Part shown: piece by piece, positions 621 through 25,334 of the stretch
Layout of the letters: every line of letters starts with the position of its first letter
How positions within the stretch are numbered: position 1 is the stretch's first letter
NCBI GenBank assembly: GCA_021777035.1
Contig: JAIQZR010000192.1
Coordinates: 185-32,184 of the forward strand
Reading direction: 5' to 3'
Origin: Candidatus Scalindua sp.
GTDB taxonomy: Bacteria; Planctomycetota; Brocadiia; Brocadiales; Scalinduaceae
Length of the DNA stretch: 32,000 nt
Position numbers and translations under genes: made by a program
The notes under the pieces: model-generated
Told to the model about the DNA's origin: nothing
Database searches by the model: none
The model's input: only the letters and a program-made list of their open reading frames with translations

Positions 621-659
621 TTCTTATTTGCCTTTAACACTTCTGGAAAGGATAAAACG

Positions 660-6300: not shown

Positions 6301-6765
6301 TAAGAAAATACCTTCCGGGAAAATTATGCCGGGTGACACACTAAAACTGCGTGCGTATTCTTCACCATATTCCCTGACGGGATGATAGATCTCACCAGCG
6401 TATTTGATTGTAAACTGATTGGTTCCAGATGGGAGCTTTACTTCAAAAAGATCCATCTTAATATTACTATGTTGAAGTGACTGATTGTCGCTGAAAAATT
6501 GTCCGGCTTCAGCACCAAAGTTTTTTCTTAGTATGAGATCTTTATCTAAAATTTCAGGCCCGAGCCTCTGATGAAGCGTAAATCGAAGCGGCCCTGCTTT
6601 TAAGGACTCCTGATGCAAGGTTATTTGATCAACTACCTCAATCCGATGACTGTCCGGATCCAGCTTAACCTTAAGGTCATGGTTGATCTGTCCGAATGCT
6701 GTTGGTGATATAACCAGGACAAACAATGCGATCTGTAAAAAGCGCCAGAACAGTTGACAATTCAT
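3355..6765 (-). CDS. Secreted multidomain metallopeptidase: M1 (aminopeptidase N-like) + M28 aminopeptidase + C-terminal PDZ
   Basis: M1 gluzincin motif HEILHNWWGN followed by WAEGLTTY (HExxH-x18-E). M28 ligand motifs GAHYDSHG, GADDNASG, FSAEEAGKLGS, NLDTVG and YHRPTD. PDZ-like GVQLDGVTIDSPADKVGLQKGDIIVRIGE. I prefer the ATG at 6765, which follows GGAG and begins the signal peptide MNCQLFWRFLQIALFVLVISPTAFG. The ORF-track TTG at 6810 adds 15 aa. Confidence 0.8.
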   Translation of the reverse strand: MNCQLFWRFLQIALFVLVISPTAFGQINHDLKVKLDPDSHRIEVVDQITLHQESLKAGPLRFTLHQRLGPEILDKDLILRKNFGAEAGQFFSDNQSLQHSNIKMDLFEVKLPSGTNQFTIKYAGEIYHPVREYGEEYARSFSVSPGIIFPEGIFLSGSTYWYPHFVDELVTFNLDVELPAGWSSVSQGTREKSDVRADSRRDVWVADTPQEEIYLISSEFTEYNQAAGAVEAMAFLRDPDPQLAQKYLDTTAQYLEMYRKLLGPYPYSKFALVENFWETGYGMPSFTLLGSRVIRFPFILHSSYPHEILHNWWGNGVYTDYEKGNWAEGLTTYLADHLIKEQRGAAVEYRRSVLQKYTNYVTANKEKDFPLTKFRSRHSAVTEAVGYGKTMMLFHMLRQELGDQDFVKALHRFYRKYKFKLASFDDVETVFNNVNNVPLESMFEQWVKRTGSPSLQVSQAVAKPKGDGYVLSAVIEQTQEAGPYLLKLPIAVHMEGVANAFQTTINVDAKLYNLELKFPVRPLQLDVDPEFDIFRTLDHNESPPALSQVFGAEQVLVVLPASTSASIRLGYQELAKGWQKGRAVNMEIKLDNELEELPADRAVWLFGWENRFRPMFNNALSDYEYAKNESGVSIENTEMKRDKHSVVIMGRHPSNNAHALAWLATDNIAAMPGLGRKLPHYNKYSYLGFTGDEPANVFKGQWPVVNSPMSIAISQEDGKEVELVTAKLKPRSALAQLPPFFSEARMLKDIEYLASDELAGRGLGTEGLDKAAAYIARQFSDAGLQPCGDRSDDYFQTWTEKVDISEHDVVTVQNVIGIIPGNNSQFDGQSVVIGAHYDSHGLGWPDCLAGNEGKIHPGADDNASGISVLLEFARLAGKKWQPERTIVFVAFSAEEAGKLGSIHYVKNAEKYPVSKIMAMINLDTVGQLGHDALTIFGNYSASEWVHIFRGAGYVTGVSIKQSTLDTGNGDEKSFIDAGVPAVHLFSGARDNYHRPTDTVDRIDTAGLVKTAAVLKEAVEYLAARPEPLTSTLTVAKESLSPQKKQSHKKRRVVLGTVPAYDFTGKGVQLDGVTIDSPADKVGLQKGDIIVRIGEIAIEDLETFSDVLKSLRVGNEIMIIFTRDGIEYTVTTKVVER

Positions 6766-7212
6766 TATAAATTCTCCAGTTATTATGATTTTTAAACGCT
6801 CCCCGGACAAAAGACACCGGAGAGTGGTAAATATAGTTTTTATCGTTATTCTAATCCTTGACCTCCTATTATAATCTGAGGATTTTCACAATCTACTAAA
6901 TTGTCATTCCTATAACGCATTATCATAATTTATTATAATTAATGAAGTCACTGTCTACTGTAAAAATACTAAGTTTTTCAAGATTTGCGATAGCGATAAT
7001 CAAGAAATCAGTTGCTGATCCTTGAATCCCATTTTTACGACAGAAACTAGTTAGCCAATGCTGTATTTTAGCGTTTGGTTAAACGACTGATTATGTACAT
7101 TTTTTGTTAATAGATTGGACAATCAAACAGGTTTTTTTCCTTGTACTTTCGTATTTATTAACTAAAATAACCATGTTGTTCTTTCTCATGGAGGGGACGA
7201 GAATAATTCCCC

Positions 7213-10130: not shown

Positions 10131-10898
10131 TTAAATACTTTTCTCTTGAGCAATTATCTCTTTAGTTAGTGCCACATAATCCTGAGCGCCATTAGACTCT
10201 GGAGCGTATACCGTAATTGGCATACCATGGCTTGTTGATTCTGAAAGTTTAATATTTTTTCTTATACAAGTGACAAACACCTTGTCTTCAAAATATTCTT
10301 TAATCTTGTCAAGCACCGCCTGCCCCAACTTTGTCCTGCTATCATACATACAAGCTATTATTCCGGTAATCTCTAACGAACTGTTCAGCCTTTTCTTGAT
10401 AATATCAAAAGTTTGCAACAACTTGCTTACGCCCTGTAACGCAAAGAACTCAGTTTGCACAGGAATGAAAATTTCGTTAGCGACAGTAAGTGCATTCAGG
10501 GTTAGAAGCCCTAGAGAAGGTGGGCAATCGATTAAAACGTAATCATACACATTTAACATCTCACCAAGATAGAACTTAACTATCGTTTCACGCCCCACAG
10601 TGTTAACAAGCTCCACCTCCGCACTTGCAAGATCAATATCAGAAGGAATAAGATCCAGACCACTTATGGCCGTTTTGATTAATACCTCAGAAACGTTCTT
10701 CTTACCGCACATTATCTGATAAATTGATAAATCTTTCCCCTGAGCGTTAACACCGTAATGGATACTTAAATTAGCTTGAGGATCGAGATCTATCAGTAGC
10801 ACCTTTTTACCAAGTGCAGCGAGACATGCTCCAACGTTTGCAGTAGATGTCGTTTTCCCAACCCCGCCTTTTTGATTTATAAACGCAATGCTACGCAA
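10131..10898 (-). CDS. ParA/Soj/MinD-family P-loop ATPase (orphan; no ParB adjacent)
   Basis: Deviant Walker A INQKGGVGKTT, Walker A' LLIDLDPQANLS and Walker B VLIDCPPSLG. TTG start after AGAGGG. Confidence 0.85.
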   Translation of the reverse strand: MRSIAFINQKGGVGKTTSTANVGACLAALGKKVLLIDLDPQANLSIHYGVNAQGKDLSIYQIMCGKKNVSEVLIKTAISGLDLIPSDIDLASAEVELVNTVGRETIVKFYLGEMLNVYDYVLIDCPPSLGLLTLNALTVANEIFIPVQTEFFALQGVSKLLQTFDIIKKRLNSSLEITGIIACMYDSRTKLGQAVLDKIKEYFEDKVFVTCIRKNIKLSESTSHGMPITVYAPESNGAQDYVALTKEIIAQEKSI

Positions 10899-11247
10899 CT
10901 TGACCCTCTTTGATATACGTTTTTTGTGGAATACACAATAGGCTAATAGCGGAAAGTTTATCCATACTAAATATTGTTGTCAAGGATATTTATATAAAAT
11001 GCCCGTTATAATTATTATAAAAATCCTATAGCTTTACATACTTGTGCATACATTGTCAGTCATGCACAATGTCGTTTCAGCACTCTTTTCGCGGACTTAT
11101 TAATCGAAAAAGCATACATTATCAACACTTTCTGCTCTTGACTCTTATTATATTCCGTTTGGAAGGAATATCTATTATTACCAATGCTAATCATCCACAC
11201 AAAAACACAACGCAAATTGTCCTAAGATTGTTGTTGTAAGATTGTTA

Positions 11248-11276
11248 TTGACATATCGATAGAAGTCTGTTATTTT
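11248..11276 (+). promoter_or_regulatory. Candidate promoter for the ACP-led operon
   Basis: TTGACA (11248-11253), 17 nt, TATTTT (11271-11276). A 10-nt direct repeat TAAGATTGTT (11223-11232 and 11237-11246) lies immediately upstream. This would give a leader of about 160 nt. Confidence 0.3.
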
Positions 11277-11442
11277 CCCTATTTCATTAATTTTCTTTTT
11301 GTCATAATCAAATTTCATCAATATATTATATAGGCCAGCAGTTTTAAAAAACAACTCCATATTGCCAATTTACTTATTTTAATTTGGTTGGCATTTTGAG
11401 TACAGTTTAGAGTTCTGGTTGTTTATTAAGGGAGGTAAGATA

Positions 11443-11697
11443 TTGTCTGTAGAAAACTTAGAGAAAGACATCACTGCAATTGTCGCTGAAGTAACCGAAC
11501 TGGAAGAAAATGAAATATGGGAGAAAAGGGATGCCGACTTTTTTAAGGATTTGGAAATTGATTCCTTACTAGCACTAGAAATCCTGGCCCTTATAGAAAA
11601 GAAATTTAAAGTTCAAATTCCGGAAGAAAAACTCGTAGACATTACATCGTTGAATGCAACAATCGAGATGACAAGATCTACACTTGAAGGAAAATAG
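11443..11697 (+). CDS. Acyl carrier protein (cluster-specific ACP paralogue)
   Basis: Phosphopantetheine attachment motif DLEIDSLLALEIL (DSL). Length is about 84 aa from the TTG at 11443, which lies 7 nt after GGAGG (11431-11435). The ORF-track start at 11419 adds 8 aa. Confidence 0.85.
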   Translation: MSVENLEKDITAIVAEVTELEENEIWEKRDADFFKDLEIDSLLALEILALIEKKFKVQIPEEKLVDITSLNATIEMTRSTLEGK

Positions 11698-11797
11698 AAA
11701 AAAGCACGTAACGTTTCTTAGTCATCTACGTGTCTATCCACAAACGATAATAGTGGTCATGCAGTGACTATCTAAATAGAACGAAAGGTTATTATAA

Positions 11798-12247
11798 ATG
11801 TTGAATTTTGAGGAAGTAAGAGAGTTGGTTCCTCAAAAATACCCATTCTTATTTATTGATAAAGTTGTTGAACTTCAAAAAGAAAGCAAAATTGTTTGTT
11901 TAAAAAATATAACGGCTAATGAGTCTTTCTTTACTGGACACTTCCCTGATTTTGCCATAATGCCTGGAGTTCTGATCGTAGAAGCCCTGGCGCAAGCCTC
12001 GATTATCCTCTTCAAAAAGAGCTTCGATACTGAGCAGTACAAAGATAAGATCTTTTTGTTGGCATCTGCTAACGTTCGGTTTTCAAAACCTGTTTTTCCT
12101 GGCGACCAGCTTTTTCTGGAAATTGAAATAGAAAAAGTAATTTCCAGTGCGGCAATAGTTAAGGGTGTGGCCAAAGTGGGAGACAAAGTTGTAACAAAGG
12201 CAACTTTGAGTTTTGGAGTTGCAAATAAAGATACATTAACGGGTTGA
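11798..12247 (+). CDS. fabZ: 3-hydroxyacyl-ACP dehydratase, FabZ family
   Basis: Hot-dog dehydratase signature FFTGHFPDFAIMPGVLIVEALAQ, with the catalytic His and Glu present. Confidence 0.9.
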   Translation: MLNFEEVRELVPQKYPFLFIDKVVELQKESKIVCLKNITANESFFTGHFPDFAIMPGVLIVEALAQASIILFKKSFDTEQYKDKIFLLASANVRFSKPVFPGDQLFLEIEIEKVISSAAIVKGVAKVGDKVVTKATLSFGVANKDTLTG

Positions 12248-12276
12248 AAATATGAATCTTCACAAAGTAAAGAACC

Positions 12277-13497
12277 ATGGATAAAAGAATTGTAATTACC
12301 GGTATGGGTGTAATTTCTCCCATAGGAAACGATAAAGATGCATTTTGGGATGCATTGATTTCCGGCACGTCCGGTGTTTCAGATGTCACATCATTTGACA
12401 CCTCGCCTTTCAAAGTACATAGAGGCTGTTTCGTTAAAGATTTCAATTATGATAATTATAAAAATAATGGTTCAAGTCGTGAAATTGGCAAAGGCTCACA
12501 ATTTGCGGTTGCAGCGGCAAAGCTGGCTATCGAAGACTCTAATATTGGTTTAAAGAATATTGATCCGGAAAGAGCTGGTGTTTCAATTGGAACAACTGCA
12601 GGAGAAATTCAGATTCTGGAAAAAGTGAACTATGTAAGACATGAAAAGGGAGAGGATAGTGTTGACCCTAGCTTGTTCCCTATGCATCCTTGCGTTAATA
12701 TGCCATCTAACATATCTATTGAATTTGGCTTTAAGGGACCAAGCACAATAATACCTACCGCATGTGCGGCTGGAAACTATGCAATCGGCTACGCATGTGA
12801 TTTGATAAAACTAGGAAGAGCCGATATAATGCTAGCCGGTGGATCAGATCCATTTTCTAAAGTAGCGTTTGTCGGTTTTAGTAGGTTAAATGCCATCGCG
12901 CCAGACATTTGTCAACCTTTTGACAAAAACAGAAAAGGCCTGTTAGTTGGCGAAGGCGCAGGAATGTTGGTATTAGAATCCCTCGAAGGTGCACTGGCCA
13001 GAAACGCAAATATTTATGCAGAAATCCTGGGTTACGGCTTGAGTTGTGATGGTTATCACATTACAATCCCGCACCCGGAAGGCAATGGCGTCACTTCTGC
13101 TATGAAAAAAGCCTTGAAAGATGCCAAAATTAGACCAGAAGATGTTCAGTATATGAGTGCGCATGGCACAGGAACAGTTGCCAACGACAAGGCCGAAACC
13201 ATATCGATAAAGAAGATCTTTGGCGAACATGCAAAAAATCTGGCCATAAGCTCTATAAAATCGATGCTTGGTCATACAATGGGAGCTGCCAGCGCCATTG
13301 AAGCAATTGCATGTGCTTTAGCTATAAAAGAAGGTGTTGTGCCGCCAACAATAAACTACGAAACAAAAGACCCTGAGTGCGATTTGGATTTTGTTCCAAA
13401 CGTTAAACGCGAAATGCAAGTCGATATTGCCATGAATAACGCATATGCTTTTGGTGGTAACAATAGTAGTCTCATACTCAAAAAGTTTACTGGTTAA
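12277..13497 (+). CDS. fabF: Beta-ketoacyl-ACP synthase II (FabF-type), catalytic triad intact
   Basis: Active-site Cys in PTACAAGN, and the two His in SAHGTGT and [12 protein letters not shown]. The C-terminus is the typical [14 protein letters not shown]. Confidence 0.9.
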
Positions 13498-13589
13498 GAA
13501 TTCAAAACTAAGATAGTGTTAATTTTCATACCGATATTAGAATTGTTCGGTTTAAAAAAGATTTTAAGTAAAAGAGGTTGGCAATTTAT

Positions 13590-14825
13590 ATGAATGGTCG
13601 TTTGGTCATAACAGGAATAAGCGTCTTATCGTCAATCGGAGAAAACCAGGATGAGTTCTGGACTAATTTGATCAATGGTGTTTCCGGGATAAAAGATATC
13701 ACGCTATTTGACGTCTCAAAATACAAAAGTAAAAAAGCTGGTGAAATATCAGATTTTGATGCTAAAGCATACTTAGGCAAAAAGGGGATTCGTCATATAG
13801 ACAGGACATCGCTATTGGTATCTTCGGCGGCAAAACTTGCCATGGACGATGCTAATATCACCCACGAAACTTACAGTGCCGATGAACTGGGAATAGTAAT
13901 CGGATCAACGTATGGCAGTATTGACAGTATCGGTTCATTCGATCTGGAGGGATTAAAGGAAGGTCCAACTTTCGTAAATCCCATGGATTTTCCAAACACT
14001 GTCCTTAATGCACCAGCAAGTAGGGTATCTATTTTCTGTAATGCTACCGGTTTAAATTCTACAATTTCTACAGGAACTGCCAGTGGATTGGATGCTATCA
14101 TTTATGCCTCTGATTTTTTAAGACTAGGCAGAGGAAAAGCCGTATTAGCCGGTGGAGTCCATGGTTTAACTCCGGACATTTTCTGGGGAGCTTACAGATC
14201 AGGAGTATTGTCGGCCAGCAGTAACGGTGGTATAGAAATATCCTCTCCATTTGATAAAAGACGCAACGGTTTCATAATTGGAGAGGCGTCGGCGTTACTG
14301 GTAATAGAAAGACTTGATGACGCACGGGAAAGAAATGCTAAGATCTATGCCGAGATAAAGGGATACGGAAGCACATTTAACCCTGACAAGATTTCTCATG
14401 ACAACATTGATACCACTCAAGGCGTAAGATGCATATCTACAGCAATGAAAGACGCCGGGATTAATTCTGACGAAGTTTCTTACATATCCGCATGCGCTAA
14501 TTCCAGTGTGACCGGAGACAAAATGGAAGCTAAAATTATTAGAGACTATTTTGGTGATAACGCTGATAATGTCCCTGTAAGTGCTATAAAATCAATGACA
14601 GGAGAATGCCTGGACGCATCAGGGTCACTACAGAGCGTTGCTGGTGTATTGGCAATTAATAATAGTATTATCCCTCCAACAATTAACTATCAGGAAAAAG
14701 ATGAAGAGTGTAATCTGGATTGTGTTCCAAACAATAGCAGAAAATCTGAAGTTAAAAATGTACTTATCAACTCCTTTTCCGATACAGGCAACATTTCTTC
14801 CTTAATCATCTCAAAATATTCATAA
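13590..14825 (+). CDS. Ketosynthase-like protein lacking the Cys-His-His triad (chain-length-factor-like partner)
   Basis: Aligns with the upstream KS along its whole length. PTACAAGN becomes STGTASGL (Cys to Thr). SAHGTGT becomes SACANSS (His to Cys). KSMLGHTMG becomes KSMTGECLD (His to Glu). I prefer the ATG at 13590; the ORF-track TTG is at 13578. Confidence 0.85.
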   Translation: MNGRLVITGISVLSSIGENQDEFWTNLINGVSGIKDITLFDVSKYKSKKAGEISDFDAKAYLGKKGIRHIDRTSLLVSSAAKLAMDDANITHETYSADELGIVIGSTYGSIDSIGSFDLEGLKEGPTFVNPMDFPNTVLNAPASRVSIFCNATGLNSTISTGTASGLDAIIYASDFLRLGRGKAVLAGGVHGLTPDIFWGAYRSGVLSASSNGGIEISSPFDKRRNGFIIGEASALLVIERLDDARERNAKIYAEIKGYGSTFNPDKISHDNIDTTQGVRCISTAMKDAGINSDEVSYISACANSSVTGDKMEAKIIRDYFGDNADNVPVSAIKSMTGECLDASGSLQSVAGVLAINNSIIPPTINYQEKDEECNLDCVPNNSRKSEVKNVLINSFSDTGNISSLIISKYS

Positions 14826-14844
14826 CTTCATAGCGACAGTTTCC

Positions 14845-16278
14845 ATGAGTAATTTCTCCCTGAACAAATCTGAAATAAAATCTAAGTATGACGTAATTGT
14901 ACTGGGAGCTGGGATTGCCGGACTAATCTGCGGAACTTTCCTGGCAAAACAGGGAAAGAAAGTTCTAATTATTGAACAACATAGTATTCCCGGAGGTTAT
15001 TGTACTTCTTTTAAGAGAAAAGGTTTTATCTTTGATGCCGCTGTCCATCATATTGGTGGGTGTGGAAAATGGAGCGTAGTTGGTAGGTGCCTTAAAGAAC
15101 TCGATATAAATATTAATTTTCTACGGCTTGATCCTATGGACAGCATCCATTTTCCTTCATTTTCAGTGGAAATACCTGCTGATATTGACGATTATGTAGA
15201 TCTGTTGAAGGAACGGTTTCCATCAGAAAGTAAAAAAATATCACTTTTCTTTAAAGAATTTATTAGACTATACAGGGCTACATTTAGCACAGATGAGCAT
15301 GAAATGCTTATCAAATACCAAGACCTTACTTATAAAGAAATGCTGGAGAACTTTTTTACTGATGAGCAGCTTAAGATGACTTTATCTGCACAGTGGGGAT
15401 ACATTGGTTCACCACCACATGAGGTTTCGGCTATTGGTATGTGCCAGATGTTAGTAAATTATCTAAAAGACGGAGCCTATTTCCCCGTCGGTGGTACCCA
15501 GAATTTTGCCGATGCAATCACTCAAAAATTTATTGACTATGGCGGCCACATTATGCTATCTTCTAGCGTTGAGACGATTTCCACAGATAGTAATATTATA
15601 AAAGGAGTTACAACGAATAAAGGGGGAGAAATTATGGCTGATACCTTTGTGTCAAATATTGATCCCAAACAAACCTTTTTGCGCTTGTTAGACAAAAATA
15701 CCGTTGATAGCTCATTTCTACACAGGATCGAGAACATGAAAGAAAGCGTTTCATTCTTTTTACTATACCTTGGCCTTGACAATAGAGTAGACTTAAAAAA
15801 GTTAAAAAGGGGTTTTTACCATACATCAAATAACTTAAGCGCTTCTGATAGTGATTGGTTTTATATTTCCGTTCCCACGGAGGTTGATTCAAGCTTGGCA
15901 CCTGATAATAAACAGATAATATCTGTTGTTGTCTCTTCAAGGGATAGTTACGACGACATAGACAATTGGGACACGTACAAAGATAAAATGAAAAAATACA
16001 CATTAAATTACCTGGAAAATTTTGTACCCGATATTCAGAATCATATTGTTGTAACTGACGCTGCCACGCCTAAAACTCTATATCGTTATACACACAACTC
16101 AAAAGGCGCAGCTTATGGCGGGGCCGTTACCGTAGACCAAACATGGTCAAATAGACTTCCACACACAACACCCTTCAAAAATCTTTTTCTAGCGGGGCAC
16201 TGGACAAATCCGGGTCCAGGAATATGTGCGGTTGTATCCTCTGGTTGGAGGGTAGCTAATATGATTTTAAATAATTAG
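14845..16278 (+). CDS. Phytoene-desaturase-like (CrtI/CrtD family) FAD-dependent oxidoreductase
   Basis: N-terminal dinucleotide fold YDVIVLGAGIAGLICGTFLAKQGKKVLIIEQHSIPGGYC. C-terminal FAD motif LFLAGHWTNPGPGICAVVSSG. Confidence 0.85.
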   Translation: MSNFSLNKSEIKSKYDVIVLGAGIAGLICGTFLAKQGKKVLIIEQHSIPGGYCTSFKRKGFIFDAAVHHIGGCGKWSVVGRCLKELDININFLRLDPMDSIHFPSFSVEIPADIDDYVDLLKERFPSESKKISLFFKEFIRLYRATFSTDEHEMLIKYQDLTYKEMLENFFTDEQLKMTLSAQWGYIGSPPHEVSAIGMCQMLVNYLKDGAYFPVGGTQNFADAITQKFIDYGGHIMLSSSVETISTDSNIIKGVTTNKGGEIMADTFVSNIDPKQTFLRLLDKNTVDSSFLHRIENMKESVSFFLLYLGLDNRVDLKKLKRGFYHTSNNLSASDSDWFYISVPTEVDSSLAPDNKQIISVVVSSRDSYDDIDNWDTYKDKMKKYTLNYLENFVPDIQNHIVVTDAATPKTLYRYTHNSKGAAYGGAVTVDQTWSNRLPHTTPFKNLFLAGHWTNPGPGICAVVSSGWRVANMILNN

Positions 16279-16290
16279 GAGGATAACAAT

Positions 16291-17757
16291 ATGAGAAAAA
16301 TGATGCTGATAAACCCACATCCCCCTGGAAGGCATGGCGAGGAGAGCATATCTGTCATAGTCCAAATGCCTTTAAACCTGGCATACATTGCAGCCCTTAC
16401 ACCGGGTGACTGGGAGTTTGATGTAATCGATGAAAATATAGAGCTGGCCCTTGATGATAATGGAGATATTACATTTGAGCCGGTAGATATGGTTTGTATT
16501 ACTTCTGTTACCTATCAAGTGTCTAGAGCTTACAAGATTGCAGAGATCTGCAGAAAAAAAGGCATGACCGTAGTCATGGGTGGCATACACGCTTCAGTAG
16601 TACCTGAAGAAGCTTCAAAATATGTAGATGCAATTTTTATCGGAGAGGCCGAAACACTGTGGCCACAAGTCATTAAAGATTTTGAAAATGGCGAACTCAA
16701 AAAGAGGTACGAAGGCGGGCTGCCAGGCCTGTCAGAAATGAAACATGTATTTCCGAATAGGGAACTCCTGAAAAAGAAATATGATTACAAGTTATCATCA
16801 ATTGTTACAACTAAAGGTTGTCCAAATTACTGCGATTTCTGTAGCGTACCAACCTTTCAAGGGAAAAAGTATAGAGAAAGACCGTATGAAGATGTTCTAG
16901 ACGAGATGGAAGCCACTGACTACAAGGGCCTGATGTTTGCCGAAGATAATTTTTATGGCCATAGTAAGAACTCTGCCAACAGAGCAAAAGCCCTCTTTCG
17001 TGGAATGATAGAAAGGGGCATTAAAAAGGACTGGCTTGGATTTACTGCACTCAATATATCAAAGGATGCAGAGGTACTTGACCTGATGGCGAAAAGTGGA
17101 AATTTTGGTTTTCTCTGCGGAATAGAATCGACAAATGAGGCTGTTCTGGAGAAGATGAATAAAACTACTAATTTAAGGATTGGGGCTGATAATTATTATG
17201 ACAGCGTTCAGAAAATCCATGATCATGGTCTTGTTGTTTGGGGGTCAATTGTCCTTGGAGCAGATGGTGATGATAAAGATTCCTTCAAAAGAATGACAGA
17301 GTTTGTATTGGAAAACAATATAGACGTACTTACCTTTGGTATTAATTGCCCGTTTCCAAAGACTGCGCTTTATGATAGACTGGATTCTGAAAAGAGGATC
17401 TTCAGAAAGAATTATCCTGAAGACTGGAAATATTATGATACTGCGCATGTTGTTCACAGACTAGTTGATATGACATTAGAGGATTTCATTGAAGGTATGC
17501 AATATATGTATGACCACCTATATGCCGCCGACAATCTGAGGCTGAGATTTAGGAAATCACTACAAACTATTGGCAGTACGACTCACGGCAAACGTAATGC
17601 TATGTTCGGCTTCAGGGTTGGTTCTGATTGGATACAGGTATTTGAACAAGTACTGGAAAATCTTCGTCTACTATACGATTCAGGTGATTACTACAAGGAT
17701 TGGTATAAGAGCAGTGCCGTTACTGTACCATCGGGTAAAGGTGTCGCGGTAAGTTAG
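16291..17757 (+). CDS. B12-binding-domain radical SAM enzyme (class B, DUF4070-type C-terminus)
   Basis: N-terminal cobalamin-binding-like domain (MMLINP...VVMGGIHASV...IGEAE). Radical SAM cluster motif GCPNYCDFC (CxxxCxxC). AGGAGG lies 7 nt before the ATG, which is 12 nt after the desaturase stop. Confidence 0.85.
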   Translation: MRKMMLINPHPPGRHGEESISVIVQMPLNLAYIAALTPGDWEFDVIDENIELALDDNGDITFEPVDMVCITSVTYQVSRAYKIAEICRKKGMTVVMGGIHASVVPEEASKYVDAIFIGEAETLWPQVIKDFENGELKKRYEGGLPGLSEMKHVFPNRELLKKKYDYKLSSIVTTKGCPNYCDFCSVPTFQGKKYRERPYEDVLDEMEATDYKGLMFAEDNFYGHSKNSANRAKALFRGMIERGIKKDWLGFTALNISKDAEVLDLMAKSGNFGFLCGIESTNEAVLEKMNKTTNLRIGADNYYDSVQKIHDHGLVVWGSIVLGADGDDKDSFKRMTEFVLENNIDVLTFGINCPFPKTALYDRLDSEKRIFRKNYPEDWKYYDTAHVVHRLVDMTLEDFIEGMQYMYDHLYAADNLRLRFRKSLQTIGSTTHGKRNAMFGFRVGSDWIQVFEQVLENLRLLYDSGDYYKDWYKSSAVTVPSGKGVAVS

Positions 17758-17789
17758 ACCACAGGCATTTAATGGTAGTTAAATATAGC

Positions 17790-17837
17790 GAGTTCCATGT
17801 TACATGTTGTGTGTTTTCTACTTGTAACATGGAACTC
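17790..17837 (+). terminator. Perfect 15-bp stem / 18-nt loop hairpin just after the operon; no U-tract
   Basis: GAGTTCCATGTTACA (17790-17804) pairs with TGTAACATGGAACTC (17823-17837). It begins 33 nt after the radical SAM stop. Confidence 0.35.
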
Positions 17838-17938
17838 TGTACTCTATTGCTAAGGAGTATATCCAACCACAATGATCACTCCTCTATTTAACCATATCTC
17901 TTCACTTTAACATTGTCAGTGTCTTTATTGGCAAAATA

Positions 17939-17966
17939 TTGACAAATGTTATTTTTAGGGTAAAAT
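17939..17966 (+). promoter_or_regulatory. Sigma70-like promoter for the 18052 gene
   Basis: TTGACA (17939-17944), 16 nt, TAAAAT (17961-17966). It lies about 85 nt upstream of an ATG preceded by AAGGAAGGTGG. Confidence 0.4.
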
Positions 17967-18051
17967 CGATCTTGTACTTAATATTACAAGAACAAGAACT
18001 ACATACATAAGACAGTATTATGGAAGCGTTTAGAAAAAGGAAGGTGGTCCA

Positions 18052-18543
18052 ATGTTAAATTTTTATAGAAAACTTTTTACCTCTACAGTTGCCCTGTTTG
18101 TACTTGTTGTATTAAACTTTACAAATAGCTCAATTAATAATGTACAAGCAGTAGATTATATAAAAAAACCATCAGAAACTCATCATCAGTCATTCGAACC
18201 TTACGAAAACCCAATTGTTATTCCTGATCCAAAACCAAGAGGTGTTGTTGTAAGAGTCAAAGAGATTACAACATACGAAGTAGTTGTTGACGAGCAAAAG
18301 GTGAATGCAAACAAAGTGACCATGGAGGATCTAGATCTTATAGAGTTGAAAGATAAAAAAGATATCAATTTCCACCAGGTGGACTGTTTTTTTTATGCAA
18401 AGGTAAAGCAGACTCAAACAAAATCAACAGACTATATATCAAGCACTAGATGGAGAGAAGGTGAACAATTCTGGTTGTCAGACGGTGGGAAATACGTTGA
18501 GTGGGAACCGTGGTCTGAATGGTATTCAGGTAATAAATGGTAA
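18052..18543 (+). CDS. Hypothetical secreted protein
   Basis: N-terminal hydrophobic signal (LFTSTVALFVLVVLNFTNSS), a strong SD and its own promoter. I recognise no family. Confidence 0.5.
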   Translation: MLNFYRKLFTSTVALFVLVVLNFTNSSINNVQAVDYIKKPSETHHQSFEPYENPIVIPDPKPRGVVVRVKEITTYEVVVDEQKVNANKVTMEDLDLIELKDKKDINFHQVDCFFYAKVKQTQTKSTDYISSTRWREGEQFWLSDGGKYVEWEPWSEWYSGNKW

Positions 18544-18779: not shown

Positions 18780-19451
18780 CTAGTGATCTTGAACTCCTTC
18801 TCTTTTTGTTTTATACAATTCGAAAGATTCATCTTTTTTTGCATACTGGCTGATATTTCTGTCAGTATACATTAAAGACATTACCCTGTTCACACCCCTA
18901 TGTGACATCAAATGGAACTCTTCAAGTGTCACCTCCAGATCTTCCTTTAACCACACCATCTTTTTATGTGATTTGTCTTCTTCTACAAAATCCGGCTCGC
19001 CATTTCCCTCTATAAAGATTGTTTCAGTCTTCTTTATATCATTTTCAGCAAATTGTAAAGTATAATCACTCCAACTACTAAGTATGACAATCTTATACAG
19101 TTTATTTTCATAAAAGAAGAATGTGAAACGTCCTCCACCAACACCCCTTGTAAGTAGTGTGACCTTATTGTTTACCATCGGCTCATATTCAGATTTGTCA
19201 GGAGCAGGAAATTGTTTCTGTACTGCACTTAAGCTGATTCCAAAATCAAGCGGTTGTTCTGCTGTTACTGATTCCGAATTGGATTCATTTTCAGATGCAT
19301 AACCAAGCATTGTTTTAATGGTTTCTACATCCTTATATATTTCTTCATCTGTGATTGTCTTTTGATCGGTAGCAACATTCTCTGTTGTGGTACAGTTTTG
19401 AATAATTACCATTGAAAGAATCGACAATAAAACAAACCAGATTTTTTTCAT
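18780..19451 (-). CDS. Hypothetical lipoprotein
   Basis: Signal peptide with a lipobox-like MVIIQNC. It lies downstream of, and on the same strand as, the MoxR gene. I recognise no family. Confidence 0.5.
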   Translation of the reverse strand: MKKIWFVLLSILSMVIIQNCTTTENVATDQKTITDEEIYKDVETIKTMLGYASENESNSESVTAEQPLDFGISLSAVQKQFPAPDKSEYEPMVNNKVTLLTRGVGGGRFTFFFYENKLYKIVILSSWSDYTLQFAENDIKKTETIFIEGNGEPDFVEEDKSHKKMVWLKEDLEVTLEEFHLMSHRGVNRVMSLMYTDRNISQYAKKDESFELYKTKREGVQDH

Positions 19452-19509: not shown

Positions 19510-20502
19510 TCAAGGTACTTCTATATTATCAAAGATATTTTGTATGACTTTTTCTGCTGTCATTTCTTCTGCCTCTGCTTCATAGGTGATGATCACTCTA
19601 TGACGCAGTACGTCCATTCCTATTGATTTTACATCTTGTGGAGTAACATAGCCCCTGCCTTTGAGAAAAGCATATGCCTTTGACGCAATAGCGAGGTAAA
19701 TAGTCGCCCTGGGCGACGCACCATATTCAATGAATTCGTCTAAATCTAGCCCGTACTTTTGAGGATCTCTGGTGGCAATTACCAAGTCTACTATATAATC
19801 TTTTATCTTATCATCAATATAAATCTGATCGACTACGCCGCGTAAGCGCTTTATATCGCTTGATTTTAAAACAGAATTTACTTTGATACTTGTATCGGTC
19901 AAGGCCATTCTATCCATGATTTCACGTTCTTCACTTTTATTAGGATAATCCACATTAATTTTTAACATGAATCTATCAACCTGTGCTTCCGGTAGAGGAT
20001 AAGTACCTTCTTGTTCAATCGGATTTTGCGTAGCAAGTACCAGGAAAGGGTCTTCAAGTTTAAATGTATCACTGCCAATCGTTACCTGCTTTTCCTGCAT
20101 CGCTTCCAAAAGAGCACTCTGTACCTTTGCGGGTGCCCTATTAATTTCATCAGCAAGAATAATATTTGAGAAAATAGGACCTTTTTTAGTAGTAAACTCT
20201 CCGCTACGAGGATTATATATAAGTGTACCTATCAAGTCTGCCGGCAGAAGATCTGGTGTAAATTGGAGCCGTTGATATTTTACCTGAATTGCTTTTGCCA
20301 GAGTCATTACAGATAATGTCTTTGCTAACCCAGGAACGCCTTCCAACAGGATGTGGCCATTAGCCAGGATGCCAATCAGCAATCTTTCTATGAGATGTTT
20401 TTGTCCTACAATTACTTTCCCCATCTCATTACTCAGATCAGAAAGAACACGGCTCTCTTCCTTGATTACATCAGTTATATTTTTTATATCTTTTGATTCC
20501 AT
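19510..20502 (-). CDS. moxR: MoxR-family AAA+ ATPase
   Basis: Walker A LLEGVPGLAKT. Walker B / sensor region ILADEINRAPAKVQSALLEAMQEKQVTI. Size is typical at about 330 aa. Confidence 0.85.
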   Translation of the reverse strand: MESKDIKNITDVIKEESRVLSDLSNEMGKVIVGQKHLIERLLIGILANGHILLEGVPGLAKTLSVMTLAKAIQVKYQRLQFTPDLLPADLIGTLIYNPRSGEFTTKKGPIFSNIILADEINRAPAKVQSALLEAMQEKQVTIGSDTFKLEDPFLVLATQNPIEQEGTYPLPEAQVDRFMLKINVDYPNKSEEREIMDRMALTDTSIKVNSVLKSSDIKRLRGVVDQIYIDDKIKDYIVDLVIATRDPQKYGLDLDEFIEYGASPRATIYLAIASKAYAFLKGRGYVTPQDVKSIGMDVLRHRVIITYEAEAEEMTAEKVIQNIFDNIEVP

Positions 20503-20719
20503 AATTTATACCTTTTCAGTCGTAGCGACTATAGCCTTTTTTTTGGGAGTTATTCTCTTGCACGTAGACTTTCGCTGGAACTATGGATGTTAGAAGAGAA
20601 CTCTTACTAAAAAAGCGATTAAAAAGCCAGCTAGTTTTTTTCAGATTTGCATAAAACCATAGCCTAGTAGTCGTCTGGAGCAAAAGCCAACGTCTAATAA
20701 TCTTATTAATCAGTATTAG

Positions 20720-23023
20720 TTATTGAATTTCTCTTACTACACTTGCTTCTATCAGATCTTGAATCTTGTTTTTGTTCATTAGGTAGACAAAGTTTGTCTC
20801 TGAACCGGTAACATAATAATCATTACCGGCCTCTTTCCCTACCAGCAATGAAGCCTCGCCATCGTCAAAACTGATAGTGATGTTAAACTGTGGGTTATCA
20901 AACCCATATTTTGATAAATTCTCGTTTGAATACTGTACAATAAACTCACCCATCAGCAATTTCATTGAAGAGATTATTCTATCTGCCAAATTCCCGCTCA
21001 ATAGTATATTTTCTGGCTTGATCATACGCCACATCTGTTCTTCATTTTTCTGAAAAAGCAACTCCTTTTCAGGATGTATTATTTTAATAGACTTTGCATT
21101 CGCACTATCGAAGCTGAACAACGTTCTTGTGACAAGCTCGATACTATAATCCCTGACGTCAGTCCACCCTACCTGAAAAATCATGCCTTCGCCATCCACT
21201 TTCGCATAATAATTAGACTTATCTTTCTCCGGTTCCACTTTATTTCCTATCAGGAGTGTCTTTGTCTTCAATTCTTTTGGCTTTACCAGATCATCTTTCT
21301 GGCTAATTACATGATCACCTTGTGGAGCCACACCAGCATCTTCATATGTTAAAGATGCACTTAACAGGGGATTATCAAATCCATAATCAGCAGAGTTTTC
21401 GGATGAAAGAGCAACTATCTTATCCGCCAACAGAAACGAGAGGTTCCATACCACTTGATTAATGGAGTCCAGTTCAGCTTGCATTGATACAGGGCTAATC
21501 ATATTCCACTTCGGTCTACGCATAGTAGAATCGTCTGCCGTCTCACATATGAGTGTTTTGCCATCCCTTTTGATAACCATTTTCTGAGCACTTTCCTTAG
21601 GGAATTCCATGACTAACTTGTCTCTGAATGCGAGATAACCTTCCGTGGCAATATCATAGAAATTCTCCGATGGTACCGTATAAACCGCATCTTCTCCGTC
21701 TCGTCTCACGTAGCACAGTCCACCATTTTCATCAGCATTACCTATTAAGAATTTCACAGTTTCACCTTCGCCAATCCTCCTGAAGACTGAAACTTCGATA
21801 GGTGAACCTGCTAATCCATACTTTTCAAAGTTAGTACCGCTATCATCAACATATTGCTGTATCTGCAAATCCTTAATTTTTTCTACAAATTCTCTTACAA
21901 CGTCTCTATCAGCAAGAATCTCTTTTGGCGATTTAATCATCCAATCATATTGTACCGTTTTTTCCATAACAAGTGTCGAATCAGGATATTTTAAATCAAT
22001 TTTTTCTATACCGTAAGTGCCGATTGCATCAAACCTCAAGAGCTGCTTGTCACGCAAATCATTTAATTCCAGATCCAGATCGCGAAGAAACATATCCTGT
22101 ACAAAGAAAATTGAACTTTCTCCGTCAAGCTTTGCATAAATTTTTTCATCCAGGCTGTGTCCCAAATGGATAGTTTGCACATCGTTTGCAGTACCAATGC
22201 TGAGAGTAAACACGGGCTTATCCAGTCCGTAGTTGATAATATCTTCTTCGCTATCGGACACAAAATCTTCTTTAGCGATCTTCAGGTTTTTCAATTCATT
22301 GAGCATATCATTGATTCTCTCAGTATCAGCACGGTCTGAAAGCGGTTGTGTTATCCACCAGAGTTGCTCGGCCTTCGAACACACCACAGAATCATTCGAC
22401 TCTCTCTCAAGCCGAACCCTCTCTACCGAATGTTTATCAAACTCAAAAGCCCATTTACTTCTTAAATCATTGATATCTTTGTCTATTTTCTCCAGGAATT
22501 TAGCGTCAACGACAGAAACATCCTTGTCGTCACCCACTGTTATATATACCGTGTCTTGTCCTGCAGCCAGCTTGTCTCCGATATTGACGGTATACCTGGC
22601 AACATCTCCAGATGTTCCGCCAACCATTGAACCCTTTTTCAACCAGAGGCTAATGGTAATAGCTGGAGTTTCAAGACCATACTCTTTCAAACTGAAATTT
22701 GTAGTCTCACTTTTTTCAACAATACCTATTTTTCTCAGAAACTCAAATTGTGAGAGAATTTCAGCCACTTCAGCTTTGTCAGCTCTTAACTGTAGCGGTT
22801 CCAACATCCGCCATGTTTCATTATCAGTGCTCTCAAGGACAATATTAGTATTCCCCTTTTTCATTTCTATTTTATTAATCTGGCCTGGTTTATAATCTGG
22901 CAGTGCCATTTGTTGTCTCTGTACCCACACATCTGTTCTATATTGCTTTCTGTCATATAGAAATATGTATGCCGCACCAATGCCTGCTACTATTAAGAGT
23001 ATTATTGTAGTTTTAAACTTCAT
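20720..23023 (-). CDS. DUF4340-domain protein (accessory component of GldG-type ABC systems)
   Basis: N-terminal TM anchor. Five repeated modules each carry a YG(L/F)(D/E)xP motif: KEYGLETP, INYGLDKP, EKYGLAGSP, ADYGFDNP, SKYGFDNP. It lies directly downstream of the GldG-like gene. Confidence 0.7.
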   Translation of the reverse strand: MKFKTTIILLIVAGIGAAYIFLYDRKQYRTDVWVQRQQMALPDYKPGQINKIEMKKGNTNIVLESTDNETWRMLEPLQLRADKAEVAEILSQFEFLRKIGIVEKSETTNFSLKEYGLETPAITISLWLKKGSMVGGTSGDVARYTVNIGDKLAAGQDTVYITVGDDKDVSVVDAKFLEKIDKDINDLRSKWAFEFDKHSVERVRLERESNDSVVCSKAEQLWWITQPLSDRADTERINDMLNELKNLKIAKEDFVSDSEEDIINYGLDKPVFTLSIGTANDVQTIHLGHSLDEKIYAKLDGESSIFFVQDMFLRDLDLELNDLRDKQLLRFDAIGTYGIEKIDLKYPDSTLVMEKTVQYDWMIKSPKEILADRDVVREFVEKIKDLQIQQYVDDSGTNFEKYGLAGSPIEVSVFRRIGEGETVKFLIGNADENGGLCYVRRDGEDAVYTVPSENFYDIATEGYLAFRDKLVMEFPKESAQKMVIKRDGKTLICETADDSTMRRPKWNMISPVSMQAELDSINQVVWNLSFLLADKIVALSSENSADYGFDNPLLSASLTYEDAGVAPQGDHVISQKDDLVKPKELKTKTLLIGNKVEPEKDKSNYYAKVDGEGMIFQVGWTDVRDYSIELVTRTLFSFDSANAKSIKIIHPEKELLFQKNEEQMWRMIKPENILLSGNLADRIISSMKLLMGEFIVQYSNENLSKYGFDNPQFNITISFDDGEASLLVGKEAGNDYYVTGSETNFVYLMNKNKIQDLIEASVVREIQ

Positions 23024-23046
23024 AATTTAATTAAAGCCTCCGATTA

Positions 23047-24633: not shown

Positions 24634-25334
24634 TTTCTACTCTCAACATTTCGTACTGTAATAAACAAAAGTAATGTCGTAAAACTCAAATAGTAAATTA
24701 CATCCCTGGTATCCACAATGCCTTTTGTAAAAGAAGACCAATGATCATAAGTCCCAATATATCTTAGAGCTTCGTAAAACCAACCATCCCCATATGTACT
24801 CAAAAAACCGACTACCCAGAGAATTATTAATGCAACTATCCCTATCACAGCAGCAACAACCTGGTTCTTTGTTAACGATGACACAAGCAAACCAACAGAT
24901 ACAAATAGCGCACCCATGAGCAACAGTCCAATATAACTGGAAAAGATAGGCCCGAAATCAGGATTTCCAAAAATGGACAGGAACAATACATAAATCCATG
25001 TAGGAAGTATCATCACCGCATACAAGCTTAAGGCGGCAAGAAACTTACCAAACACCACATCAAAATCCGTTACCGGAGAAGTCATGAGAGTCTCAATCGT
25101 TCCGGACTTTGACTCATCCGAAAAGAGTTTCATGGTGATTACCGGTGTAAGCAACAGAAGGAAAAATTGAATTGAGTCCAGGCTACCCTTAAGGGACGCT
25201 TCCTGCCAGAACTGCAAATTACCCGCAAAAAAGAAACCGGCTGCGATTAAGAACACAGAAATCACAACGTATGCAATTGGCGAATAGAAGTAGGACAGTA
25301 ATTCTCGTTGATATATAGCAGATACATTACGCAT
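24624..25334 (-). CDS. ABC-2 type transporter permease
   Basis: A 236-aa polytopic membrane protein with about 6 hydrophobic segments. Its start overlaps the ATPase stop by 8 nt. Confidence 0.75.
   Translation of the reverse strand: MRNVSAIYQRELLSYFYSPIAYVVISVFLIAAGFFFAGNLQFWQEASLKGSLDSIQFFLLLLTPVITMKLFSDESKSGTIETLMTSPVTDFDVVFGKFLAALSLYAVMILPTWIYVLFLSIFGNPDFGPIFSSYIGLLLMGALFVSVGLLVSSLTKNQVVAAVIGIVALIILWVVGFLSTYGDGWFYEALRYIGTYDHWSSFTKGIVDTRDVIYYLSFTTLLLFITVRNVESRKWR

What the first reader, a model, noticed from the sequence alone, without database searches (positions are those of the whole stretch)
13590..14825. Second ketosynthase has Thr/Cys/Glu in place of the Cys-His-His triad, suggesting a KS/CLF-style heterodimer
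The two adjacent KS genes align end to end. In the second, all three catalytic positions are replaced: TACAAG to TGTASG, AHGTGT to ACANSS, and GHTMG to GECLD. The fold-defining segments (LAGG, KSM, the C-terminal region) are retained. This pattern matches non-condensing partner subunits such as type II PKS chain-length factors and the KS-like partners in aryl-polyene systems. Those subunits shape the acyl pocket and set chain length or geometry. A Thr at the Cys position, rather than the Gln of classical CLFs, argues against decarboxylative priming and for a purely structural or templating role.
Basis: seen in the sequence. Interest (0 to 1): 0.7.

Follow-up and report, generated by a model that had tools for sequence, protein, structure and literature searches.

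The report
Inactive ketosynthase partner in anammox ladderane cluster
The second ketosynthase gene has lost its catalytic residues and is the Scalindua copy of "amxFabFmut", an inactive partner that pairs with the neighbouring active ketosynthase in the putative ladderane-lipid cluster of anammox bacteria; this was already published, so it is a correct rediscovery.

Summary
The ORF at 13590-14825 (411 aa) aligns end to end with the upstream ketosynthase at 12277-13497 (37% identity, E 2e-90). It carries Thr163/Cys302/Glu339 where the upstream gene has Cys163/His296/His333. The two pantetheine-binding Thr and the gating Phe are also replaced.

The gene sits in the order ACP, FabZ, KS, KS-mut, phytoene-desaturase-like, B12 radical SAM. 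This is anammox "Cluster I" (KustE3603-3608), here from a close relative of Scalindua brodae.

The protein matches PDB 9S5H chain C, Brocadia fulgida amxFabFmut, at E 2e-174. Its neighbour matches chain B, amxFabF2, at E 1e-203.

A 2026 bioRxiv paper (Granatino et al.) shows that the orthologues from other anammox genera:
- co-purify;
- act only together, decarboxylating malonyl-ACP and forming acetoacetyl-ACP;
- form a KS/chain-length-factor-like heterodimer, in which residues of the inactive subunit line the acyl tunnel.

The paper names Thr as the Scalindua variant. Rattray et al. (2009) had already tabulated the lost triad.

My additions:
- strong purifying selection (dN/dS about 0.05-0.07);
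- tunnel residues invariant in 116/116 homologues;
- more triad variants than published;
- a sister cluster in Omnitrophota that lacks the radical SAM gene.

Verdict: already known; interpretation supported; low interest.

The parts
11419..11697 (+). amxACP, the anammox-specific acyl carrier protein (orthologue of KustE3603/Scabro02231). The true start is probably downstream of the TTG at 11419.
   Evidence: Pfam PP-binding, E 1e-13. Residues 11-92 match S. brodae amxACP (PDB 7QV0_D) at E 1e-44, differing at two positions in the printed alignment.
11798..12247 (+). amxFabZ, a 3-hydroxyacyl-ACP dehydratase variant (orthologue of KustE3604/Scabro02230).
   Evidence: Pfam FabA-like, E 6e-28. Matches PDB 8AYI/7QV0_A, S. 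brodae amxFabZ, at E 5e-84. The translation shows His48 and the amxFabZ hallmark Ile69.
12277..13497 (+). KS1 = amxFabF2, the active ketosynthase subunit with Cys163/His296/His333 intact.
   Evidence: Both KS Pfam domains. Matches PDB 9S5H_B, B. fulgida amxFabF2, at E 1e-203 over the full length. Motifs TACAAG, AHGTGT and GHTMG are present.
13573..13577 (+). AGAGG ribosome-binding-site-like motif, 12 nt upstream of the KS2 ATG. It lies in the 92-nt KS1-KS2 spacer, so the two genes are not translationally coupled.
   Evidence: Sequence read. The ATG form is the called gene in the public collection.
13590..14825 (+). KS2 = amxFabFmut, a triad-less ketosynthase homologue and the CLF-like partner subunit (orthologue of KustE3606/Scabro02228/Broful02170).
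   Evidence: Both KS Pfam domains. Matches PDB 9S5H_C at E 2e-174. 37% identical to KS1. dN/dS 0.05-0.07 against Scalindua orthologues.
13989..14003 (+). Codons for Phe134-Pro-Asn-Thr137-Val138 of KS2. They lie in the helix-loop-helix motif that lines the partner's acyl tunnel (B. fulgida Phe135/Thr138/Val139).
   Evidence: F, T and V are invariant in 116/116 anammox-type and 120/120 Omnitrophota-type homologues. Their role in the tunnel comes from the paper.
14076..14078 (+). Thr163 codon of KS2, at the position of the catalytic Cys.
   Evidence: Across close homologues this position is T (59), V (45), E (7) or I (5).
14493..14507 (+). Cys302-Ala-Asn304-Ser-Ser306 of KS2, replacing the His-Gly-Thr-Gly-Thr motif (first catalytic His and the two pantetheine-binding Thr).
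   Evidence: The His position is C in 98 and N in 18 of the homologues.
14589..14606 (+). Lys334 (retained) through Glu339 of KS2. Glu339 replaces the second catalytic His.
   Evidence: K334 and E339 are invariant in 116/116 homologues.
14781..14783 (+). Asp398 of KS2, at the position of the gating Phe (KS1 Phe392). The GFGG gate loop reads SDTG.
14845..16278 (+). Phytoene-desaturase-family FAD oxidoreductase (orthologue of KustE3607).
   Evidence: Pfam Amino_oxidase, E 3e-25. NCBIfam crtI_fam, E 2e-48, below the curated cut-off. Syntenic in Scalindua loci L001, L011 and L015.
16291..17757 (+). B12-binding radical SAM enzyme (orthologue of KustE3608).
   Evidence: Pfam Radical_SAM, B12-binding and DUF4070. 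Cluster members are named Candidatus Scalindua B12-binding radical SAM protein. 87-96% identical in Scalindua loci.

Best explanation
KS2 (13590-14825) is the Scalindua orthologue of amxFabFmut, a FabF-derived protein. It keeps the thiolase/ketosynthase fold but has lost the following:
- the acyl-accepting Cys;
- both catalytic His;
- the two pantetheine-binding Thr;
- the gating Phe.

It does not condense on its own. It pairs with the product of the adjacent gene, KS1 (amxFabF2, intact Cys-His-His), to form an obligate heterodimer with a single active site.

[quoted passage not shown] KS2 therefore both enables activity of KS1 and influences which chain lengths are accepted, in the manner of a chain-length factor.

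The complex works with the dedicated amxACP and amxFabZ encoded just upstream. It can self-prime by decarboxylating malonyl-amxACP to acetyl-ACP and condensing to acetoacetyl-ACP.

Shown experimentally for orthologues in the paper:
- heterodimer formation;
- activity only together;
- tunnel architecture;
- the effect of tunnel mutations on probe preference.

Shown here:
- orthology;
- synteny;
- loss of catalytic residues;
- invariance of the tunnel residues;
- purifying selection.

Inferred:
- that this particular Scalindua pair behaves the same way;
- that the product feeds ladderane lipid synthesis.
For: Orthology:
- KS2 matches 9S5H_C at E 2e-174 and KS1 matches 9S5H_B at E 1e-203.
- The ACP and FabZ are near-identical to S. 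brodae amxACP and amxFabZ structures.

Synteny: the order ACP-FabZ-KS-KSmut-PDH-rSAM is identical to KustE3603-3608. It is conserved in Scalindua loci L001, L011 and L015.

Catalytic loss.

Conservation:
- Glu339, Lys334 and F134/T137/V138 are invariant in 116/116 homologues.
- The former Cys and first His positions vary (T/V/I/E and C/N), as expected if they no longer do chemistry.

Selection: dN/dS is 0.073 against L001 and 0.054 against L011, similar to KS1 at 0.042 and 0.064.

Published experiments on orthologues:
- co-purification;
- no activity of either subunit alone;
- decarboxylation plus acetoacetyl-ACP formation by the heterodimer;
- crosslinking only to amxFabF2;
- the defunct tunnel has no access to the triad;
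- F135G/V139G alter probe preference.

The paper explicitly lists Thr at the Cys position for S. brodae.
Against: - No experiment addresses this exact pair.
- For Scalindua, only an amxFabFmut homodimer crystal is reported, with the helix-loop-helix motif disordered. The heterodimer was shown for Kuenenia and Brocadia.
- The heterodimer did not elongate hexanoyl-ACP in vitro. Chain-length control rests on a non-physiological crosslinking assay.
[quoted passage not shown] This does not reproduce the charge complementarity that the paper invokes for heterodimer specificity, though such a count is a crude proxy.
- The link of the cluster to ladderane synthesis is still circumstantial.
- The source is a preprint.
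Confidence: 0.9

Rival explanations
1. KS2 retains a different catalytic activity, using its altered site (Thr163/Cys302/Glu339). Rattray et al. suggested, for example, that it couples a short linear acyl chain to a separately made ladderane unit. Alternatively, Cys302 could serve as a relocated nucleophile.
For: - Glu339 and Lys334 are invariant in 116/116 homologues, and the Scalindua lineage carries a Cys at the first His position in 98/116.
- The inactive subunit still has a tunnel, which bound PEG in the crystal.
- Rattray et al. [quoted passage not shown]
Against: - No candidate nucleophile is conserved. Position 163 is T/V/I/E and position 302 is C or N across genera.
- The pantetheine-binding Thr pair and the gate Phe are lost.
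- The orthologue alone showed no activity and no crosslinking.
- Electrostatic docking does not place amxACP at its tunnel entrance.
- The authors state that their results refute the early proposal.
Confidence: 0.05
2. KS2 is a KSQ/CLF-type malonyl-ACP decarboxylase, which supplies the acetyl primer in its own active site while KS1 elongates.
For: The heterodimer, but neither subunit alone, decarboxylates malonyl-amxACP to acetyl-ACP. Classical CLFs were proposed to act this way through their active-site Gln (general knowledge of type II PKS).
Against: - KS2 has Thr, not Gln, at the Cys position.
- It lacks both His residues that drive decarboxylation in ketosynthases.
- The His-His pair exists only in KS1.
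- ACP docks and crosslinks at the KS1 entrance.
Confidence: 0.03
3. KS2 is a decaying, functionless paralogue of the neighbouring ketosynthase.
For: All canonical catalytic residues are gone. It scores below the NCBIfam FabF cut-offs: 349.7 against 493.75, and 342.5 against 387.
Against: - The ORF is full length and intact in all homologues examined, which are 63-93% identical across anammox genera.
- dN/dS is 0.05-0.07.
- 116/116 homologues keep the interface and tunnel residues.
- The partner is inactive without it.
- A sister clade is conserved in Omnitrophota.
Confidence: 0.01

Closest known systems
amxFabFmut of anammox Cluster I (KustE3606, Broful02170 = PDB 9S5H/9S5I chain C, Scabro02228). 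Sources: Granatino et al. bioRxiv 2026; Rattray et al. 2009.
   Same: - Orthologous sequence (E 2e-174; about 65-66% identity to Brocadia-type proteins).
- Same gene order.
- Same lost triad; the Thr variant is explicitly reported for Scalindua.
- Same tunnel residues.
   Different: Nothing of substance. This copy comes from a different Scalindua lineage, about 88-93% identical to the nearest database entries. The Scalindua heterodimer itself has not been solved.
Type II polyketide synthase chain-length factors (KS-beta), for example actinorhodin ActB (PDB 1TQY chain B) and ishigamide Iga12 (6KXD-F).
   Same: - A KS-fold subunit without the catalytic Cys.
- Encoded next to its active KS.
- Forms an obligate heterodimer.
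- Contributes wall residues to the acyl tunnel at the interface and so affects chain length.
   Different: - It has Thr, not the Gln of aromatic-PKS CLFs.
- Both His residues are also lost.
- Its nearest solved relatives outside the anammox family are FabFs. B. subtilis FabF scores E 2e-83, the act KS-alpha scores 6e-48, and no chain named as a CLF appears in the 60 best PDB matches.
- Foldseek also puts FabFs first.
- It therefore looks like an independent, FabF-derived origin.
- The 92-nt spacer means there is no translational coupling.
- It operates with FAS-type partners (FabZ).
Aryl-polyene KS-CLF pair ApeO-ApeC (Acinetobacter baumannii; PMC8358021).
   Same: A heterodimeric KS/CLF complex in a Gram-negative, FAS-like type II system that makes a reduced or unsaturated chain, with a dedicated ACP and dehydratase (abstract listed).
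   Different: Not compared residue by residue here. The cluster content differs: aryl-polyene clusters lack the phytoene-desaturase-like and B12 radical SAM genes.
Triad-less KS partners in Omnitrophota 'ladderane-like' clusters (L018, L023, L032, L081, L083) and in one Planctomycetia MAG (L019).
   Same: - 41-50% identical to KS2.
- Lys334 and the FxxTV tunnel motif are invariant in 120/120.
- They form a 100%-bootstrap clade with the anammox proteins, and the partner KSs likewise.
- Full-length loci on long contigs also encode ACP, DH and a PDH-like oxidoreductase.
   Different: - The triad is Phe/(Ser, Thr, Ala, Cys, Gly)/(Asp, Glu).
- The gene order differs, with KSmut first.
- A FabG-like ketoreductase is present.
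- No B12 radical SAM gene lies in the 10-kb flanks.
[quoted passage not shown]
   Same: Same fold and length. It is the best non-anammox structural and sequence match (37% identity to B. subtilis FabF).
   Different: The catalytic triad, the pantetheine-binding Thr pair and the gate Phe are lost. The score of 349.7 bits is below the 493.75 cut-off. It acts as a heterodimer subunit, not a homodimer.

Membership tests
amxFabFmut (anammox Cluster I non-canonical FabF) | Full-length sequence orthology to the characterised proteins. | tested here: met
   E 2e-174, residues 8-414 of the TTG-start form aligned to 4-410 of PDB 9S5H_C. 63-93% identity to proteins annotated from Scalindua, Brocadia and Brocadiaceae.
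amxFabFmut (anammox Cluster I non-canonical FabF) | Cys-His-His replaced by Val/Thr, Asn/Cys and Glu. | tested here: met
   Thr163, Cys302 and Glu339. The paper lists Thr for Scalindua and Glu/Cys/Asn for the His positions.
amxFabFmut (anammox Cluster I non-canonical FabF) | Position in Cluster I: ACP, FabZ, FabF2, FabFmut, phytoene-desaturase homologue, B12 radical SAM. | tested here: met
   Pfam calls for the six consecutive + strand ORFs at 11419-17757. Same order as KustE3603-3608. Conserved in L001, L011 and L015.
amxFabFmut (anammox Cluster I non-canonical FabF) | [quoted passage not shown] | tested here: met
   PMDFPNTVL at residue 131. F134/T137/V138 are invariant in 116/116 homologues.
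amxFabFmut (anammox Cluster I non-canonical FabF) | Forms a heterodimer with amxFabF2, and the pair is active only together. | not testable with these tools
   Shown for Kuenenia and Brocadia orthologues. No multimer prediction or wet experiment was available here.
Type II PKS chain-length factor (KS-beta) | KS fold lacking the acyl-accepting Cys, encoded beside an active KS. | tested here: met
   KS1 ends at 13497 and KS2 starts at 13590.
Type II PKS chain-length factor (KS-beta) | Gln at the former Cys position (aromatic type II PKS CLFs). | tested here: not met
   Thr163. Homologues have T, V, I or E, never Q.
Type II PKS chain-length factor (KS-beta) | Groups with CLF sequences rather than with catalytic KS/FabF. 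| tested here: not met
Type II PKS chain-length factor (KS-beta) | Controls product chain length through the tunnel at the dimer interface. | not testable with these tools
   Published crosslinking with V139G and F135G/V139G mutants of the orthologue suggests an effect. Physiological elongation has not been reconstituted.
Canonical FabF (TIGR03150 / PRK07314) | Scores above the curated family cut-off and has the Cys-His-His triad. | tested here: not met
   349.7 bits against a cut-off of 493.75, and 342.5 against 387. The triad is absent.

The most novel reading that the evidence does not exclude
The KS/inactive-KS pair is not an anammox invention. It is part of an older five-gene module: ACP, FabZ-like dehydratase, KS, triad-less KS and a phytoene-desaturase-like oxidoreductase.

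This module is shared with many Omnitrophota, where it comes with a FabG-like ketoreductase and without the B12 radical SAM enzyme. If so, the heterodimer makes a short or unsaturated acyl precursor that is not ladderane-specific, and the radical SAM gene is the anammox-specific addition that creates the cyclobutane rings.

Comparing the two cluster types would isolate the ladderane-specific step. It would also predict an unknown, related lipid in Omnitrophota.

Two caveats apply. 'Ladderane-like' antiSMASH clusters in non-anammox phyla, including Omnitrophota, are already reported. And the trees here are neighbour-joining on 21 sequences.
Probability: 0.45. Interest if true: 0.5.

Novelty: already known. 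Interest (0 to 1): 0.2.

Why it matters
Ladderane lipids are among the strangest natural products, and their biosynthesis is unsolved. The heterodimer is one of the few experimentally characterised pieces of the candidate pathway.

For this window, the finding correctly identifies that piece from raw sequence, but it adds nothing beyond the 2009 and 2026 literature.

- evidence that the inactive subunit is under strong purifying selection;
- evidence that its tunnel motif, not its former active site, is what is conserved;
- more variants at the dead active site than published (Ile and Glu as well as Val and Thr);
- a robust sister relationship of both subunits with Omnitrophota clusters that lack the radical SAM enzyme.

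Tried and rejected
1. TTG 13578 as the start codon. Rejected: that form is not in the public collection and the ATG 13590 form is. The AGAGG motif abuts the TTG.

2. [quoted passage not shown] KS1 gave -3/+2 and KS2 gave -4/0. A hand count on the B. fulgida chains printed was equally uninformative. The test was dropped as too crude.

3. AlphaFold2 monomer of KS2 from a 24-sequence alignment. Mean pLDDT was 63 and pTM 0.73, with low confidence at 108-163 and 193-230. It was used only for a Foldseek ranking, where FabFs came first at TM about 0.70. It was not used for pocket inspection. The Foldseek PDB copy did not return 9S5H among its top 50 matches.

4. A CLF-specific curated family. NCBIfam returned only FabF/KS models, all below cut-off.

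5. Promoter and terminator scan of 10800-18200. No terminator-like site lies between the cluster genes on the + strand, apart from a weak one inside the FabZ gene. Promoter-like hits are consensus noise in AT-rich DNA.

6. I considered that the Omnitrophota hits might be mis-binned anammox contigs. Rejected: they are only 41-50% identical, form a large family of their own (120 clusters), and lie on contigs of 246 and 710 kb.

7. I considered that they might correspond to the second anammox non-canonical KS, Kuste2805. Rattray's table gives Phe/Asn/Glu at its triad positions, similar to L018. This was not resolved, because no Kuste2805 sequence was retrieved.
Full report
**1. The observation**

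The finding's coordinates, 13590-14825, are an intact 411-aa ORF on the + strand. The ORF listing extends it to a TTG at 13578. The ATG form is the one recorded as a called gene in the public collection and the TTG form is not. An AGAGG motif at 13573-13577 abuts the TTG but sits 12 nt before the ATG.

The ORF has both ketoacyl-synthase Pfam domains (E 7e-38 and 3e-24). It aligns end to end with the upstream ketosynthase KS1 at 12277-13497 (37% identity, 412 columns, E 2e-90).

An independent alignment to Bacillus subtilis FabF (E about 1e-83, ungapped around the sites) gives the same substitutions:
- Cys->Thr163
- His->Cys302
- His->Glu339

In addition:
- the two Thr that bind the phosphopantetheine arm are Asn304 and Ser306;
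- the gating Phe is Asp398;
- the conserved Lys (334) is retained.

**2. What it is**

Six consecutive + strand genes span 11419-17757:
- an acyl carrier protein;
- a FabZ-like dehydratase;
- KS1, with an intact triad;
- KS2;
- a phytoene-desaturase-family flavoprotein;
- a B12-binding radical SAM enzyme.

Searches of the PDB identify them directly:
- KS2 matches 9S5H chain C at E 2e-174.
- KS1 matches 9S5H chain B at E 1e-203.
- The ACP differs at two of the 82 aligned residues from chain D of 7QV0.
- The dehydratase matches 8AYI and 7QV0_A at E 5e-84.

The JBC 2023 paper confirms that 7QV0 and 8AYI are Scalindua brodae amxFabZ and amxACP. The window's dehydratase carries the hallmark Ile69.

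Exact-sequence look-up and homologue names place the window in a Candidatus Scalindua genome. The gene order equals that of KustE3603-3608, 'Cluster I', the leading candidate for ladderane lipid biosynthesis in anammox bacteria.

**3. Prior knowledge**

Rattray et al. 2009 already tabulated the deviant active site of Kuste3606 as Val163, Asn298, Glu333 and Arg392. They concluded that it had a different function. Javidpour et al. 2016 list it as 'non-canonical FabF'.

The bioRxiv paper of May 2026 from the Barends laboratory characterises the pair. It reports the following:
- Kuenenia amxFabF2 and amxFabFmut are inactive separately but co-purify when co-expressed.
- Together they decarboxylate malonyl-amxACP and form acetoacetyl-ACP.
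- The Brocadia fulgida heterodimer and its complex with C8-amxACP were solved.
- Only the amxFabF2 subunit crosslinks to acyl-ACP probes.
- Phe135, Thr138 and Val139 of the inactive subunit line the acyl tunnel.
- Val139Gly and Phe135Gly/Val139Gly change the chain-length preference of crosslinking.

[quoted passage not shown] It also states that the His residues are Asn, Glu or Cys.

*Active-site and tunnel conservation.* Among the 116 full-length closest homologues, the former triad reads TCE (59), VCE (39), ENE (7), VNE (6) or INE (5). Glu339, Lys334 and Phe134/Thr137/Val138 are invariant in all 116. Conservation has thus moved from the dead active site to the tunnel and interface motif. This is what a templating subunit predicts, and it argues against a relocated nucleophile. 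The Ile and Glu variants at the Cys position go beyond what the paper lists.

*Selection.* dN/dS for KS2 against Scalindua orthologues is 0.073 (L001) and 0.054 (L011). This is the same order as KS1, at 0.042 and 0.064. The gene is under strong purifying selection.

*Family scores.* KS2 scores below the curated FabF cut-offs (349.7 against 493.75 bits).

*Nearest relatives.* Apart from the anammox proteins, its best solved relatives are FabFs. The actinorhodin KS-alpha ranks far lower, and no chain named as a CLF appears among the 60 best. Foldseek on a mediocre AlphaFold model (pLDDT 63) also puts FabFs first. So it works like a chain-length factor but is not a member of the PKS CLF lineage.

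**5. Mechanism and rivals**

The best explanation (confidence about 0.9) has three parts:
- KS2 is an obligate, non-catalytic partner that completes and shapes the single acyl tunnel of KS1.
- The complex uses amxACP.
- The complex can self-prime by decarboxylation and condensation in the KS1 site.

The steps shown here are orthology, synteny, residue loss, conservation and selection. The physical and enzymatic steps are taken from orthologues in the preprint. Transfer to this Scalindua pair is inferred.

The rivals are each unlikely for the reasons given in their entries:
- a cryptic alternative catalysis (about 0.05);
- a KSQ-like decarboxylase role for KS2 itself (about 0.03);
- a decaying paralogue (about 0.01).

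Caveats:
- Only a homodimer of the Scalindua protein has been crystallised.
- Elongation beyond C4 was not reconstituted.
- My crude charge count did not reproduce the published electrostatic rationale.
- The link to ladderanes remains circumstantial.

**6. Beyond the window**

The genome scan also returned triad-less relatives at 41-50% identity in Omnitrophota MAGs (L018, L023, L032) and in a Planctomycetia MAG (L019).

A second protein search showed that this is a large family: 120 clusters at 67% identity or more to the L032 protein, and every one that carries a taxon name is from Omnitrophota or Omnitrophica. Its features:
- the triad is Phe/(S, T, A, C, G)/(D, E);
- Lys334 is invariant;
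- the FxxTV motif is invariant.

Two long contigs (L081, 710 kb; L083, 246 kb) show the neighbourhood in this order:
- triad-less KS;
- FabG-like reductase;
- ACP;
- KS;
- FabA/ApeI-like dehydratase (L081 only);
- phytoene-desaturase-like oxidoreductase;
- sensor kinase.

No B12 radical SAM gene lies within 10 kb.

Identities of the L081 and L083 proteins to the window proteins are ACP 45-48%, DH 46% (L081 only), KS 52-56%, inactive KS 48-50% and PDH 32-34%.

In a bootstrapped neighbour-joining tree, the inactive subunits of anammox and Omnitrophota form one clade (100%). The active partners form another (100%). Both are separate from canonical FabFs. The pair therefore predates the anammox cluster.

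This is only partly new. antiSMASH 'ladderane' clusters in non-anammox phyla, including Omnitrophota, have been reported.

**7. Verdict**

Novelty: already known. Interest is low (0.2), because the finding rediscovers a published and structurally characterised system. The most novel reading left open is the shared ancestral module with Omnitrophota, with the radical SAM enzyme as the anammox-specific addition.

Noticed in passing
L081 10001-17652; L083 10001-16015; also L018, L019, L023, L032: Omnitrophota MAGs, and one Planctomycetia MAG, carry a sister cluster. Its order is triad-less KS (Phe at the Cys position), FabG-like KR, ACP, active KS, FabA/ApeI-like DH and a PDH-like oxidoreductase. 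No B12 radical SAM gene lies within 10 kb. Both KS subunits are sister to the anammox ones with 100% bootstrap support (NJ).
   Followed up: partly
window 14076-14078 and 14493-14495 (KS2 residues 163 and 302), compared across P0020-P0138: The dead active site varies more than the literature states. The Cys position is T, V, I or E, and the first His position is C or N. The second His is always Glu. The paper mentions only Val and Thr at the Cys position.
   Followed up: yes
L002 (CAXMPV010000082.1, 7,968 bp): This contig encodes a KS2 orthologue 88% identical to the window's, with the same T/C/E residues. It is deposited as an 'uncultured Thermodesulfobacteriota' MAG, so it is probably a mis-binned Scalindua contig.
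   Followed up: no
window 11419-11697: The ACP ORF as listed starts at a TTG with ten extra N-terminal residues (MFIKGGKILS). The solved S. brodae amxACP chain aligns only from residue 11 (VENLEK...). The real start codon was not determined.
   Followed up: no
KS2 residues 108-163 and 193-230 (window about 13911-14078 and 14166-14279): The AlphaFold monomer model is confident for the core but below pLDDT 50 in the helix-loop-helix and partner-helix regions. In the published Scalindua amxFabFmut homodimer crystal, residues 110-130, within the first of these regions, were disordered. This may reflect dependence on the partner, or merely the shallow alignment.
   Followed up: no
window 585-1248 (+): A PemK/MazF-family toxin gene (901-1248, E 6e-27) overlaps a 115-aa upstream ORF (585-932) that has no Pfam match. 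This is a likely toxin-antitoxin pair.
   Followed up: no
window 3355-6810 (-): A 1151-aa protein combines M1-peptidase, M28/M20-peptidase and C-terminal PDZ domains. This is an unusual multi-peptidase fusion.
   Followed up: no
window 18052-18543 (+) and 18780-19451 (-): Two ORFs (163 and 223 aa) lie directly downstream of the radical SAM gene and have no Pfam match. The first has an N-terminal hydrophobic stretch. Whether either belongs to the cluster is unknown.
   Followed up: no
window 19510-26280 (-): A run of genes: MoxR-type AAA ATPase, DUF4340 protein, ABC-transporter auxiliary protein (ABC_transp_aux), ABC-2 permease and ABC ATPase. It appears to be an ordinary transport or gliding-type operon unrelated to the finding.
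   Followed up: no
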